Of a stretch of DNA of 64,000 nt, positions 35,591-53,414 are shown one piece after another. Below the pieces are notes generated by a model. The model saw only the letters and a list, made by a program, of their open reading frames with translations, searched no databases and was not told where the DNA came from. The translations under genes and the position numbers were made by a program. This stretch comes from Treponema sp. (GTDB taxonomy: Bacteria > Spirochaetota > Spirochaetia > Treponematales > Treponemataceae), in assembly GCA_045627625.1 (NCBI GenBank), contig JAZQOB010000124.1:1505-65504 (forward strand). Direction: 5' to 3'. The stretch's first letter is position 1. Each line of letters starts with the position of its first letter.

Positions 35591-36790
35591 TTAGTTAAAA
35601 AGTTCGATTAAAGTTTTTGCATCCCGAACAATGTTATCAACAATACAGTATTCATTTGGCTGGTGAGCCTGATCATCCAGAGAACTCCATACAACTGCAT
35701 CAATGCCTTCCCGTCTAAGTTCAGCCCCAACAGTTCCCCCTCCAATACCAATGAACTTTGCCTGAATATTGTGGGCGGTTTTAAGAGCGGCTGCCAGTTT
35801 TTGTGCAACAGGGGCAGTAACAGGAGTTGCAGGACTTTCTGAACGCTGTGGACAGGAATAGTCAATTTTTACCTTGTATTCTGCTTCAACCGTTTTAATG
35901 CATTTTTCAACTTCTGCAAGGACTTCTTTAAGCTGATAGCATGGAAGAATTCTGCAGTCCATATAGAAAGTGTCTTCTCCAGGAATAATATTAATGGAGT
36001 CTACATTTTTTTCCCGTTTTGTTGGCTGGAAAGTAGAGTAGTTAGGTTCAAATAGATCGTCAGTTTTACAGAATACTTTTTCCAGATTATGAAGTTTTAG
36101 CGAAAGATCGCAGGCTGCAAGACAGGCATTTGCTCCATTATCAGGACGGCTTCCATGAGTCTGGGCTCCCTGAACATGAACCTTGAGCCATAAAAGATTT
36201 TTTTCCGCAATTTCGATAGTTTCGCCTTTTGCATCTCCTCCATCAGGAATTACAACCAGATCACCTTTCTTAAAAAGATCTGTATTGTGGATAAGATAAA
36301 TCATTCCGTATTCGCTGCCGTTTTCTTCATCTGCAACAAAAAGGAGTTTCACATTGCAGGCAGGAGTAAGATTATTCTGAATATAATACAGACCTGCAAA
36401 AGCGGCAGAAACTAATCCCTGCTGATTATCTTCAACACCACGACCATAAAGTTTTCCGTCTTTTTCCACCATTTCCCATGGATTTGTATTCCACAAAGAT
36501 AAATCTCCAACAGGAACAACATCCATATGGGCAACAACCCAAAGGTTTTTAGAAGTATCTTTTCCTGGAATTGTTACAACAAGACTTGGGCGGTTTCCTG
36601 AACTTACGCGGGAATCAGGAGCTTCGTATCGTTCTATATTGTTAAAGCCTTTTTCTTTAAGCCATTTTTCCAGGGCATTACATTTTTCAGTTTCACCATC
36701 GCCACCACCTTCTGGAGCAATAGCAGGAATAGAAGTCAAAAGGGCTTCGAGTTCAATCATTTCGTTTTTCTTAGATTCTAAATAATTCAT
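35591..36790 (-). CDS. M20 family metallohydrolase (DapE/ArgE-like)
   Basis: AHMDVVP, GRGVEDN, ADEE and AHQPNE. Confidence 0.92.
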   Translation of the reverse strand: MNYLESKKNEMIELEALLTSIPAIAPEGGGDGETEKCNALEKWLKEKGFNNIERYEAPDSRVSSGNRPSLVVTIPGKDTSKNLWVVAHMDVVPVGDLSLWNTNPWEMVEKDGKLYGRGVEDNQQGLVSAAFAGLYYIQNNLTPACNVKLLFVADEENGSEYGMIYLIHNTDLFKKGDLVVIPDGGDAKGETIEIAEKNLLWLKVHVQGAQTHGSRPDNGANACLAACDLSLKLHNLEKVFCKTDDLFEPNYSTFQPTKREKNVDSINIIPGEDTFYMDCRILPCYQLKEVLAEVEKCIKTVEAEYKVKIDYSCPQRSESPATPVTAPVAQKLAAALKTAHNIQAKFIGIGGGTVGAELRREGIDAVVWSSLDDQAHQPNEYCIVDNIVRDAKTLIELFN

Positions 36791-36843: not shown

Positions 36844-37584
36844 ATGCCTAGTAATAAGTACAGTTTCTGGCGTCTGATAGCAGTATTTTGTGCAATTTTT
36901 CTTGTTGTTGCTTACATTGCCTGCTACTTTTTGATGCCGGATAACATGAAAAAAGTTTATTTAATTTTAATGATTCCTACCTTCTTTTTATGGTTGTATT
37001 CTGTCATTCACCAGATGATGTTTCCTCTTGATTTAAGAATCTATGTTATCTGGGTTTTCTATTTTTCCTTCTTTCTTGTTTCTTATGGATTTACAGCATT
37101 AAGTTTGTTTGTTTTCTGTTGTGGCTATGTGCTTGGAATGAAAATTCGTTACATGCAGAAAGGAAAAGTCTGGAAGCTTACAGTGGCTATAATTCTTTAT
37201 ATGGCTTCTTCTCTTTATATTCTTCGTCTGTCCCCATTGGAAGTTATCAACTGTGTTGCAGAATTTTTGATGATGGCAATTGGTATTGTTGCCATGCGTT
37301 TTGTCCTTAAGCATCTTATTGATAAAATTAACAAGGATATTTACAAAGAAATTCCAAAAGAAGATTTAAATTCATATTTTGAGGAATTGAATTTTTCTGA
37401 CCGGGATAAGGCAATGCTGGAAGCAGTACGAAACGGCTGCAAGTATGAAGAAATTGCCATTAATCATAATCTTTCAATCAGTTCTGTAAAAAAACGCCTT
37501 GCTTTCCTTTATAAAAAGCTTGGAGTTACCTGTCAGATTGATTTCTTGATTAAATTCTCCCAAATAAACATTCCTATCGAATAA
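36844..37584 (+). CDS. Polytopic membrane protein with C-terminal LuxR-type HTH
   Basis: About 5-6 hydrophobic segments, then FSDRDKAML..GCKYEEIA...SISSVKKRLAFLYKKLGV. Confidence 0.85.
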   Translation: MPSNKYSFWRLIAVFCAIFLVVAYIACYFLMPDNMKKVYLILMIPTFFLWLYSVIHQMMFPLDLRIYVIWVFYFSFFLVSYGFTALSLFVFCCGYVLGMKIRYMQKGKVWKLTVAIILYMASSLYILRLSPLEVINCVAEFLMMAIGIVAMRFVLKHLIDKINKDIYKEIPKEDLNSYFEELNFSDRDKAMLEAVRNGCKYEEIAINHNLSISSVKKRLAFLYKKLGVTCQIDFLIKFSQINIPIE

Positions 37585-37607
37585 ACCAGACAGACATTCA
37601 GGCGTTC

Positions 37608-37693
37608 CACCTTGGTGTAAGAAAAAAATAACCAAGGTTACCCCTAAATTCCACCAAGGTTCAATTTTCTTTATTCTCTTCTCCTGGTAATAT
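37608..37693 (+). promoter_or_regulatory. Three phased ACC-NN-GGT operators plus extended -10
   Basis: CACCTTGGTG (37608), TAACCAAGGTTA (37629) and ACCAAGGT (37653), centres exactly 22 bp apart; TGgTAATAT at 37685-37693. Confidence 0.7.
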
Positions 37694-37699
37694 TAAGAT

Positions 37700-37790
37700 A
37701 TCAGATAAGTAAATTAGTTATCTGGACTAAGAGAGAGTTTAAAAAAAATTACCCGGAAGGTTTTGGAGAGAGCCTTCCGGGTTTTCTTTT
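37700..37790 (+). ncRNA. Candidate sRNA
   Basis: No ATG-initiated ORF; 5' hairpin cagataa/ttatctg, GAGAGTTTAA, then a terminator. Confidence 0.4.
37751..37790. terminator. Bidirectional terminator
   Basis: acccggaagg/ccttccgggt stem, T-rich 3' side and A run on the 5' side. Confidence 0.8.
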
Positions 37791-37810: not shown

Positions 37811-38941
37811 TTATACATTGAACTTGAAGAATAAAACATCTCCATCCTGAACAACATATTCTTTTCCTTCCTGGCGATATTTACCGGCAGCTTTAATTGC
37901 AGCTTCATCACCATACTTACGCAAATCATCGATTGTGTAAGCTTCTGCTTTAATAAAGCCTTTTTCAAAGTCGGTATGGATTACACCAGCAGCTTTTGGA
38001 GCTTTATCACCGGCATGAATTGTCCATGCTCTACATTCATCTGGACCACCAGTGAAGTATGTTCTAAGACCCATCAAGTGATAAGTTTTTCTAGCCAAAA
38101 CTGAAAGACCACTTTCTGTAAGACCAACACTTTCCATAAAGTCTTTGCGGTCAGCAGGATCTTCAATTTCTGCAAGGTCAGCTTCGAACTTACCGCAGAT
38201 AACAACAACTTCAGAATTTTCTTCAGAAGCATATTTTTTTACGATTTCAACATAATCATTTGTCTGTGCTTCGATTGAATCTTCATCAACATTTGCAACA
38301 TAGATAGTTGGCTTCATAGAAAGAAGGAACATATCGTAAATAGCAGCTTTTTCATCGTCAGTTAAATCTGCTGTGTGGGCACATTTTCCGTCAAGCAACA
38401 AAGGTTTAATTTTTGCAACTGCAGAATTAAAAGGAGCCAGCTGTTTTTCAGCGTCTTTTCCCAAGGCACGAACAGTTTTAATATTTTTTTCTTCCCGCTT
38501 TGTAATTGTATCCAGGTCGGCCTGACATAATTCCCAGTTGATTGTAAGAATGTCGCTTTCTGGATCAATAGGAGCGGCTTCGTTTGCATTGTCGCGAACA
38601 TGCATAATGTCTGGATTGTCAAAACATCTTACAACATGAGCAATTACAGAACATTCACGAATGTTAGCAAGGAATTTATTTCCAAGACCTTCACCCTGAG
38701 AAGCCCCTTTAATCAAACCTGCAATATCAACGAATTTTACAGAAGCAGGAGTCTTCTTTTTTGGGTTATGTTTGCTTGCAAGAAAATCAAGTCTTTCATC
38801 TGGTAAATCAACGATACCAACGTTTGGATCGATTGTACAGAAAGGGAAGTTCTCTGCCGCAGCAGGAGCCGCAGTCAAAGCCGAAAAGATTGTAGACTTA
38901 CCAACATTTGGAAGTCCAACGATACCACATTCAAGAGCCAT
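37811..38941 (-). CDS. ychF: Ribosome-binding ATPase YchF
   Basis: GIVGLPNVGKST, DIAGL, GLGNKFL and YVVQDGD. Confidence 0.97.
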   Translation of the reverse strand: MALECGIVGLPNVGKSTIFSALTAAPAAAENFPFCTIDPNVGIVDLPDERLDFLASKHNPKKKTPASVKFVDIAGLIKGASQGEGLGNKFLANIRECSVIAHVVRCFDNPDIMHVRDNANEAAPIDPESDILTINWELCQADLDTITKREEKNIKTVRALGKDAEKQLAPFNSAVAKIKPLLLDGKCAHTADLTDDEKAAIYDMFLLSMKPTIYVANVDEDSIEAQTNDYVEIVKKYASEENSEVVVICGKFEADLAEIEDPADRKDFMESVGLTESGLSVLARKTYHLMGLRTYFTGGPDECRAWTIHAGDKAPKAAGVIHTDFEKGFIKAEAYTIDDLRKYGDEAAIKAAGKYRQEGKEYVVQDGDVLFFKFNV

Positions 38942-52364: not shown

Positions 52365-52389
52365 CATAATTTGTAATTATTACAAAAAG

Positions 52390-52467
52390 TAACCTCGGTT
52401 ATTTTTTCATATACCTTGGTTATTTCTTTCTAAATGCTATTTAATTTTTTTTTATTAGTGTTATTAT
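52390..52467 (+). promoter_or_regulatory. Two phased ACC-NN-GGT operators plus extended -10
   Basis: TAACCTCGGTTA (52390) and ACCTTGGT (52413), centres 21 bp apart; TGtTATTAT at 52459-52467. Confidence 0.6.
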
Positions 52468-52471
52468 GAGG

Positions 52472-52631
52472 ACAGCTTGAATATTAAAGCAAGTTCCCAC
52501 GGGAATAAACTTCTTACTATATCTTGAGGGGTTGCCCTTTAGCATTTAGGACGTCGGAAAGTTTACAAGCTATGAGAGTTTAAGTCTCGTACTGAGATGG
52601 AGAGCCACAATTAATTTTGTGGCTCTTTTTT
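52472..52631 (+). ncRNA. Candidate structured sRNA
   Basis: GC-richer stretch with no meaningful ORF: agcttg/caagct enclosing stem, ttccc/gggaa and aggg/ccct hairpins, GAGAGTTTAA, and terminator agagccacaa/ttgtggctct+T. Confidence 0.5.
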
Positions 52632-53414
52632 TTATTTTGAAATCTGGAACTGCATCAAAAGAATTTTTAATTCATTGATATTTGTAACATTAAAAATTTT
52701 GAAGACTTCTGCGAAATCCTTTTTTACTGTGGAAATACTGATGAAATATTTTTCACTTAAATCTTTGTAAGAAAGGTTTTCGTTGATTGTATCAATAATT
52801 AAATTAATCTGTCGTTCTGTAAGTTTATATTCAGAAAGATTGATTTTGTTTCCTCTTCCAACTTTAAGCAAGTTATTTTCAGATACATTTGCAGGAATAA
52901 TACAGAATTCAGATTTTAAGTACTTATAAATGCATGAATAGAAGGTTGCATAGAAGAATGATGTGAAATATGCAATAAAGGTTTTTGACCAGCCATGAGT
53001 ATACATTAAGGTGATTGCAATAAAGTGGAATATCAGCAGTATATGGGCTTTAACAACAGATTTTTGGGAGAATTGGTCATAAATAATTATCAGGATTATA
53101 GCAGCATAAAAGAAAAAAATTCCTAATTGTTCATATGCTGTAAGAATAGTTAAGAAACTTTCGATGAGAAGAATGGAAACCAAAATTGGCATTTTTGGTT
53201 TTATAATGCTATAAATACCGCCCAACAGACACAAACCATGCATTATTGGCAACAGGATACTAGTAAAAGGGTGTCCGTGGTAGCTTAATGGAATTAGTTC
53301 TAGAATTGAATCTTTATCACCATCAAGTAAAATGCTGGCAAGAAAAGATACAAACAAAAAAACTGATCCAACAGCAGCTATGACTCTCTCCATTCGAGTC
53401 GTAGATGTTTTCAT
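52632..53414 (-). CDS. Polytopic membrane protein with C-terminal LuxR-like HTH
   Basis: About 5-6 TM segments, then KLTERQINLI..LSYKDLS..SISTVKKDFAEVFKIFNV. Confidence 0.8.
   Translation of the reverse strand: MKTSTTRMERVIAAVGSVFLFVSFLASILLDGDKDSILELIPLSYHGHPFTSILLPIMHGLCLLGGIYSIIKPKMPILVSILLIESFLTILTAYEQLGIFFFYAAIILIIIYDQFSQKSVVKAHILLIFHFIAITLMYTHGWSKTFIAYFTSFFYATFYSCIYKYLKSEFCIIPANVSENNLLKVGRGNKINLSEYKLTERQINLIIDTINENLSYKDLSEKYFISISTVKKDFAEVFKIFNVTNINELKILLMQFQISK

What the first reader, a model, noticed from the sequence alone, without database searches (positions are those of the whole stretch)
36844..37790. Membrane LuxR-type sensor with a phased operator array driving an ORF-less transcript (copy 1)
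Seen: directly downstream of the TM-LuxR gene lie three ACC-NN-GGT palindromes (centres 37612.5, 37634.5, 37656.5, exactly 22 bp or two helical turns apart). An extended -10 (TGgTAATAT, 37685-37693) follows, with no good -35. After it come ~90 nt with no ATG-initiated ORF (hairpin cagataa/ttatctg, GAGAGTTTAA) ending at a strong terminator. Known: LuxR-family activators bind palindromes centred near -42; the proximal box here sits at about -43 from the predicted start. Inference: a one-component membrane sensor that activates its own downstream small RNA, a module I do not recognise as described in spirochaetes.
Basis: partly seen in the sequence, partly recalled or inferred. Interest (0 to 1): 0.8.

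Follow-up and report, generated by a model that had tools for sequence, protein, structure and literature searches.

The report
Membrane LuxR switches on GAGAG RNA
In a gut Treponema, a membrane-anchored LuxR-type regulator sits beside a conserved operator and promoter that have lost the two exported-protein genes found there in its relatives, leaving a roughly 90-base GAGAG-rich stretch that likely belongs to a class of small RNAs not found in Rfam or in our paper searches and seen beside many related regulators, though in this copy it may be a leftover.

Summary
Observation confirmed. The three ACCNNGGT boxes 22 bp apart are the only such triple in the genome, and box 3 lies at a fixed distance from a -10 in every orthologue. 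The reading needs correcting. In all 5 orthologous genomes this promoter drives a beta-propeller lipoprotein plus a likely outer-membrane barrel. Here that pair is missing, and a related pair with a near-identical box array sits on another contig, without a regulator beside it. The 90-nt unit is probably a deletion product, but not random DNA. Of 447 predicted terminators, only this one and copy 2 carry two or more GAGAG words. It aligns best with the GAGAG-rich tail behind the barrel gene in two orthologues. Paralogous regulators (91 of 164 genomes) often drive ORF-less GAGAG(UUU)-repeat transcripts. No Rfam match; no RNA run was listed, so expression is untested. Best reading: a membrane one-component activator turning on a motif-repeat small RNA, likely a protein decoy (0.42). 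Rivals: inert scar (0.33), base-pairing RNA (0.17). The scan's look-ups returned nothing on this module.

The parts
36844..37584 (+). Membrane LuxR-type regulator, 246 aa: five to six predicted hydrophobic helices with short loops (residues 5-167), then a LuxR/NarL-type HTH (about 175-240)
   Evidence: ORF; model mean pLDDT 84; HTH fold Z 8.7-8.9; Pfam GerE E 5e-4, below cut-off; hydropathy
37585..37620 (+). In-frame relic of the older C-terminus (reads ..STLV* past the present stop; orthologues end STKV*). Box 1 lies inside it
37609..37616 (.). Box 1 (ACC-TT-GGT); in orthologues it overlaps the regulator's last codons
37631..37638 (.). Box 2 (ACC-AA-GGT); box 2 through box 3 is 38 of 38 identical to G193
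37651..37664 (+). Box 3 with conserved flanks, invariant in the clade; centre about -43 from the inferred start
   Evidence: exact 14-mer in 9 of 338 genomes, 6 of them those with the orthologue; reversed control 3 matches
37685..37693 (+). Extended -10 (TG-G-TAATAT), 23 nt after the box-3 14-mer in all 8 clade promoters examined
37700..37790 (+). Predicted ORF-less RNA: 5' hairpin 37702-37724, GAGAGAG at 37731-37737 and 37766-37772, intrinsic terminator
   Evidence: ends inferred, expression untested
37751..37790 (.). Bidirectional intrinsic terminator with a GGAG loop; the A-run 37741-37748 would be the U-tract for convergent ychF
37811..38941 (-). ychF GTPase (synteny anchor)
35591..36790 (-). 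M20 peptidase, divergent (synteny anchor)
52388..53414 (.). Copy 2, a paralogous module: two boxes (52392, 52413), an ORF-less stretch of about 160 nt with GAGAGTTT at 52574 and a terminator, convergent membrane LuxR 52632-53414 (-)
   Evidence: same layout in G193

Best explanation
This is a membrane-anchored LuxR-type regulator with a conserved operator array and promoter that it likely activates, and the promoter here would make a roughly 90-nt GAGAG-motif small RNA that likely acts as a decoy for an RNA-binding translational regulator. Shown: protein architecture, box conservation and spacing, absence of the lipoprotein and barrel genes that orthologues carry at this promoter, a second array-led copy of such genes on contig C117, and the GAGAG signature shared with ORF-less units beside paralogues. 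Inferred: the helical bundle senses an envelope or membrane cue (there is no periplasmic domain); dimers bind the phased boxes; the box centred near -43 recruits RNA polymerase in place of a -35; a deletion joined the promoter to the GAGAG-rich tail that ended the old operon; the same protein activates the C117 genes in trans. The decoy step is the weakest. It rests on a short word repeated up to 11 times at variable spacing in otherwise unconserved RNAs, and on its likeness to a ribosome-binding-site form used in this genome (GGAGAGTTTT-ATG). The bound protein is not identified; CsrA and a PUR-domain protein are both encoded.
For: Operator: 38 of 38 identity to G193 over boxes 2-3, against 54-66% at four-fold sites of the flanking genes. 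Constant box-to--10 distance in 8 of 8 promoters. Box pairs near 20 of 90 family loci, 5 of 1548 control genes, 2 of 1800 shuffles. RNA: of 447 predicted terminators only copy 1 (4 words) and copy 2 (2 words) have two or more GAGAG. Copy 1 is the densest non-coding GAGAG window in the genome; 2 of 5000 shuffles reach 4. In 11 ORF-less units from other genomes the top words found without a prior were GAGAG (9 of 11 against 20 of 445) and GAGAGT (8 of 11 against 1 of 445). An automated split gave GAGAG in 6 of 6 terminators behind box pairs against 4 of 63 others in the same loci. Best alignments are to the post-barrel tails of G190 (0 of 500 shuffles) and G189 (1 of 500). Hfq was not found in this 87%-complete genome; CsrA, its fliW-type neighbour and DUF3276 were.
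Against: No expression or binding data. All 5 orthologous genomes drive proteins from this promoter, and G193 and G192 lack the GAGAG tail. The motif also lines up with the old ribosome-binding site of the G193 lipoprotein with its ATG lost (p 0.078). G175 lost regulator, boxes and both genes yet kept the GAGAG tail, so the tail can survive passively. Operator conservation could predate a recent deletion. The motif was chosen after comparing copies 1 and 2; kin genomes are not independent (L114, L117 and L130 are one clade); the 11 units were hand-picked. The motif is not more single-stranded than the rest (0.38 against 0.40 unpaired). Several family RNAs hold no GGA (L098, L130), against CsrA. 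Paired GAGAGTTT occurs in 41 of 338 genomes, about as often as the reversed control. One of the 20 box pairs (L146) is a coding false positive and one (L118) is this genome's copy 2.
Confidence: 0.42

Rival explanations
1. Inert deletion scar. The regulator and operator are real, but the lipoprotein and barrel genes were deleted. What remains is the old 5' leader with its ribosome-binding site, or the old 3' tail, abutting a terminator kept for ychF. The regulator's only working target is the C117 cassette.
For: 5 of 5 orthologous genomes have both genes here; G193 is syntenic on both sides and has about 1.85 kb more. GAGAGAGTTTA sits where orthologues have their ribosome-binding site and ATG. 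An independent whole-cassette deletion in G175 left similar relics. The terminator is needed by ychF.
Against: The 5'-leader alignment is weaker than the 3'-tail alignment (p 0.078 against 0.002 or less). It does not explain the second GAGAGAG in the terminator loop, nor why the two top GAGAG terminators of 447 are both behind this operator type. The operator shows no decay.
Confidence: 0.33
2. The RNA is functional but acts by base pairing: GAGAGUUU is a seed that pairs with AAACUCUC-like sites in mRNAs or in another small RNA.
For: Short terminated RNA under an envelope-type regulator, the usual layout of pairing RNAs (general knowledge). Copies 1 and 2 each hold only one full GAGAGUUU.
Against: Only 6 of 2045 start regions hold AACTCTC, with no shared function; duplex scans gave no convincing common target. 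Relatives carry up to six GAGAGT copies at variable spacing. Hfq not found.
Confidence: 0.17
3. The unit encodes a tiny peptide from a rare start codon, or serves only as an insulator or autoregulatory block at the end of the regulator's gene.
For: A 33-codon frame from ATA at 37705 exists. Box 1 overlaps the ancestral end of the regulator gene.
Against: That frame has no ribosome-binding site in front and runs through the terminator. The longest frames in family RNAs vary from 11 to 63 codons with no shared peptide seen. Fixed box-to--10 spacing points to outward activation.
Confidence: 0.08

Closest known systems
10-12-TM LuxR regulators of Eggerthella lenta (DadR, CadR, HcdR; PMC9734109, passages read)
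   Same: N-terminal membrane domain plus C-terminal LuxR HTH; activation of neighbouring genes (shown there, inferred here)
   Different: Five to six short-looped helices in 246 aa rather than 10-12; outputs are exported proteins or an ORF-less RNA, not metabolic enzymes; the word 'spirochaet' had 0 hits in that main text
Transmembrane transcription regulators as a class (PMC10269533, passages read)
   Same: One-component regulator in the membrane; Spirochaetota are reported as enriched in them
   Different: Treponema, LuxR and GerE had 0 hits in its main text; its File S1, not opened, may list these proteins
CsrB/RsmY-type decoy RNAs
   Same: Terminated ORF-less RNA with a repeated short purine word resembling a ribosome-binding site, switched on by a LuxR/NarL-type HTH activator (recalled); CsrA is encoded
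   Different: The repeated word is GAGAG(U), not GGA in loops; some members have no GGA; no Rfam match; spirochaete CsrA is reported as GGA-dependent and probably FliW-controlled (PMC8668096 passages, which also mention one CsrA-related ncRNA in L. biflexa)
Quorum-sensing LuxR with lux box near -42.5
   Same: Palindrome centred near -43, weak -35, same HTH fold
   Different: No autoinducer-binding domain; membrane bundle instead; box sequence unrelated; -42.5 position recalled
3'-UTR-derived small RNAs (CpxQ, MicL; recalled)
   Same: An RNA element at the end of an envelope-protein operon, ahead of the terminator, in G189, G190 and G082
   Different: Here the coding part is gone and the promoter abuts the element; Hfq not found; 0 of 14 other coding outputs checked had such a tail right behind the last gene walked

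Membership tests
LuxR/NarL-type HTH regulators | C-terminal four-helix LuxR HTH | tested here: met
   Fold Z 8.9, rmsd 2.5 over 65 residues to RcsB; top 10 rows all LuxR-type; Pfam GerE below cut-off
Transmembrane one-component regulators | Membrane helices and DNA-binding domain in one chain, no kinase or receiver domain | tested here: met
   Predicted helices 5-167 hydrophobic; no other Pfam domain of note; topology predicted only
Coriobacteriia 10-12-TM LuxRs | 10-12 N-terminal membrane helices | tested here: not met
   Five to six helices against 10-12
Quorum-sensing LuxR | Cytoplasmic autoinducer-binding domain | tested here: not met
   N-terminal part is an all-helical hydrophobic bundle; no Pfam hit
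LuxR-type activators | Binds a palindrome near -42 and activates | not testable with these tools
   Co-occurrence and spacing fit; binding needs EMSA
CsrB/Rsm decoy RNAs | Many GGA motifs in hairpin loops | tested here: not met
   Copy 1 has 3 GGA, one in the terminator loop; L098 and L130 have none; enriched word is GAGAG(T)
CsrB/Rsm decoy RNAs | Match to Rfam models | tested here: not met
   No gathering-level hit in the window or in 20 loci apart from one tRNA; only sub-threshold hits
CsrB/Rsm decoy RNAs | CsrA encoded in the genome | tested here: met
   PF02599 E 2e-23 at C89, in a flgK-flgL-fliW-type cluster
CsrB/Rsm decoy RNAs | Direct CsrA binding | not testable with these tools
   needs EMSA
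Hfq-dependent pairing small RNAs | Hfq present and a conserved seed with targets | tested here: inconclusive
   Hfq not found in an 87%-complete genome; no convincing targets
Small RNA (any) | Discrete expressed transcript | not testable with these tools
   No RNA run listed

The most novel reading that the evidence does not exclude
Treponema has a widespread family of small membrane LuxR sensors whose shared palindromic operator drives either exported envelope proteins or a class of GAGAG(UUU)-repeat small RNAs that titrate an RNA-binding translational regulator by mimicking a ribosome-binding site, a Csr-like circuit with a non-GGA code wired straight to the membrane. Copy 1 shows such an RNA being freed from the 3' end of an operon by deletion of its coding genes.
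Probability: 0.35. Interest if true: 0.82.

Novelty: new variant of a known kind. Interest (0 to 1): 0.6.

Why it matters
It gives a predicted operator, promoter architecture and two kinds of output for a regulator family found in 91 of 164 near-complete genomes of the genus, none of which we found described in the libraries searched. Small-RNA control in treponemes is little mapped, and no CsrB-like RNA is in Rfam for them. A repeat-motif RNA class under direct membrane control would be a testable entry point, and family members exist in a cultured species (T. brennaborense). If copy 1 is only a scar, the family-level result still stands and copy 2 is the better example.

Tried and rejected
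Rfam: nothing at gathering level in the window or 20 loci but one tRNA. No RNA holder listed. Pattern-based locus searches were weak: 1 spurious hit in genome contigs, 2 loci in metagenomes, one an orthologue. The protein Atlas gave no answer. The membrane bundle had no clear fold match; it was not folded alone. NCBIfam gave only weak HTH hits. The paired-GAGAGTTT scan was not enriched over its control genome-wide; of its 30 loci, 6 lay beside a family regulator gene. Target prediction by duplex energy was uninformative. Motif accessibility was not above background. GAGAG tails were not general behind coding outputs. Flagellin leaders of this genome show no GAGAG repeats, so a flagellar CsrA link is unsupported. 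Assembly artefact rejected. The locus of the nearest homologue (P0002, 79% identical) could not be obtained, so the deletion cannot be dated. Paper searches found no description of this module; most subscription journals are not in the library. Look-ups of earlier scan findings gave one unrelated ychF note.

Full report
Observation. The three ACCNNGGT boxes are at 37609, 37631 and 37653. Among 192 such 8-mers in the 2.69-Mb genome this is the only triple; the other clusters are a pair on contig C117 and a pair at window 52392/52413. None of 5000 shuffles of the intergenic region gave three boxes. The extended -10, 5' hairpin, GAGAGTTT and terminator are as described. No ATG or GTG start lies in the unit. 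Contigs of runs X1 and X2, from two studies of which one may be the source, span the region with 1-3 differences, so it is not an assembly error. Homologue names point to Treponema.

The regulator. The 246-aa protein folds as five to six hydrophobic helices with short loops, a linker and a four-helix HTH. The HTH matches RcsB, DosR, VpsT and NarL at Z 8.7-8.9; Pfam GerE is below cut-off. A profile of 27 close homologues found full orthologues in 5 other genomes of 338 plus one distant hit, and 354 cluster representatives at E up to 0.001. A broader 33-sequence profile hit 91 of 164 genomes, nearly all at least 90% complete. This genome has two members, copy 1 and copy 2.

The operator. The box-3 14-mer occurs exactly in 9 of 338 genomes: the 6 with the orthologue (twice in this genome) and 3 others, as many as the reversed control's 3 matches. 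In all 8 clade promoters examined (window, C117, five genomes and contig L024, which duplicates G193) a TA..[A/T]T hexamer begins 23 nt after it. Boxes 2-3 are 38 of 38 identical to G193, while four-fold sites in ychF and the M20 gene are 100 of 151 and 79 of 145 identical. Box 1 encodes the regulator's last residues in orthologues (STKV*), and the window keeps this in frame past a newer stop. For 90 loci taken from the top of the 150 listed family matches (67 more were not listed), a pair of relaxed boxes 19-23 bp apart lay within 500 bp in 20, against 5 of 1548 genes of this genome and 2 of 1800 shuffles. One of the 20 is a coding false positive and one is copy 2. Binding and activation are inferred from this, not shown.

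What the promoter drives in relatives. In G193, G192, G189, G190 and G082 the promoter is followed by a roughly 400-aa lipoprotein and a roughly 190-aa exported protein. The lipoprotein family folds as a beta-propeller (C117 member, pTM 0.80). The second protein has a signal peptide and ends in G-x-R-F/L; a small outer-membrane barrel is my inference, it was not folded and Pfam gave only MipA at E 0.079 for one member. G193 is syntenic with the window on both sides and holds about 1.85 kb more between promoter and terminator. This genome has a related pair on C117, behind a near-identical array that still carries the regulator's last codons but no regulator gene; G192 and G193 have nothing at that site. 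So the regulator probably still has protein targets in trans. G175 lost regulator and both genes at the G190-type site and kept relics and the tail. The cassette is labile, and the ORF-less state of copy 1 is best read as derived, though the order of events was not rooted.

Is the 90-nt unit more than a scar? Of 447 predicted terminators in this genome, 425 have no GAGAG in the preceding 95 nt, 20 have one, and the two with more are copy 1 (4) and copy 2 (2). Copy 1 is the densest non-coding GAGAG window. Its first 51 nt align best with the tail behind the barrel gene in G190 (0 of 500 shuffles) and G189 (1 of 500), less with G175 (p 0.024) and G082 (0.06), and weakly with the G193 leader and ribosome-binding site (0.078); the other 7 of 13 comparisons besides G190's leader (0.088) were above 0.1. 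Beside paralogues, ORF-less terminated units behind box arrays are common. In 11 such units that I picked by eye from other genomes, the most enriched words were GAGAG (9 of 11 against 20 of 445) and GAGAGT (8 of 11 against 1 of 445). An automated split gave 6 of 6 against 4 of 63. Across all fetched loci, some of them selected by the motif, 19 of 21 units classed as RNA held GAGAG, up to 11 times. Against this: the motif was first noticed in copies 1 and 2; kin are not independent; G193, G192 and C117 lack the tail; 0 of 14 other coding outputs had one; the word is no more unpaired than its surroundings; the paired word is not enriched genome-wide; the terminator serves ychF anyway. No Rfam family matches. 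No RNA run was listed, which says nothing either way.

Mechanism. Most likely the membrane bundle senses an envelope cue, dimers load on the phased boxes, and the box near -43 recruits polymerase. Output is the C117 proteins and the 90-nt RNA. A short word repeated at variable spacing in otherwise unconserved RNAs suggests protein titration. The word resembles a start-site form used here: 18 of 1170 scored starts have GAGAGT just upstream, 8 of them flagged as signal peptides by a crude test against 333 of 1170 overall, a weak trend. CsrA and a DUF3276 protein (PUR-like, recalled) are encoded; Hfq was not found. Leptospiral CsrA needs GGA (PMC8668096, passages), which some family RNAs lack. 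Borrelia Bpur prefers purine-rich RNA (PMC3764826, passages). The partner is therefore open. Odds: decoy RNA 0.42, inert scar 0.33, pairing RNA 0.17, other 0.08.

Comparison with what is known. It works like the membrane LuxRs of Eggerthella (PMC9734109, passages) but fails their 10-12-helix feature. It is a transmembrane one-component regulator, a class reported as enriched in Spirochaetota (PMC10269533, passages; File S1 not opened). Treponema denticola has a csrA-fliW cluster (PMC9481697, passages). The RNA may work like CsrB but fails the GGA-loop and Rfam tests, so it is not filed there. Other papers were seen only as search listings. Nine searches found no account of this operator or RNA class; the library lacks most subscription journals.

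Verdict. A real and apparently undescribed regulatory module, a new variant of known kinds. Copy 1 is a trimmed member whose RNA carries the family signature but may be a leftover. Interest 0.6.

Noticed in passing
window 52388-53414: Copy 2: two boxes, an ORF-less stretch of about 160 nt and a terminator facing a convergent membrane LuxR. The layout and the pairing ends of the RNA are kept in G193, and similar units follow an amino-acid ABC operon in many genomes. Better small-RNA candidate than copy 1.
   Followed up: partly
G000 C117:919-2824 (L109): Orphan cassette after a TatD-like gene: three-box array with the regulator's last codons, beta-propeller lipoprotein, likely barrel, terminator. 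Absent at this site in G192 and G193.
   Followed up: yes
G000 C31:10319-11569: Second paralogue of the lipoprotein with no box array seen upstream.
   Followed up: partly
L086 (G175:C124), 1350-1550: Independent deletion of the whole regulator-lipoprotein-barrel cassette, leaving short coding relics, the GAGAG tail and the terminator.
   Followed up: yes
L081 near 1541 (-), L085 near 1501 (+), L090 near 1501 (+): ORF-less GAGAG-repeat terminated stretches with no membrane LuxR within 1.5 kb; L081 and L085 have a sigma-54-like TGGCA..TGC element upstream (consensus recalled). The RNA class may have other inputs.
   Followed up: no
L092 (G226:C108), L048, L062, L061: Box arrays with ORF-less GAGAG units but no regulator gene in the fetched flank, suggesting control in trans.
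   Followed up: no
L114, L117, L130, L096, L104 (between the regulator and a glycyl-tRNA-synthetase-like gene): Arrays of four to six boxes interrupted by a G-run of 8-11 bases, a possible phase-variable spacer.
   Followed up: no
L219, L220, L221, L222, L218: Tandem repeated array-plus-lipoprotein cassettes, each with its own box array, beside one regulator.
   Followed up: partly
L114 and kin, codons 10-14 of the regulator: The conserved Arg-Val near the start of some family members is encoded by GAGAGTT, the same word as in the RNAs; may be chance.
   Followed up: no
G000 C95:14850-15350: Several copies of a palindrome of the parS type (recalled) downstream of a gyrA-like gene.
   Followed up: no
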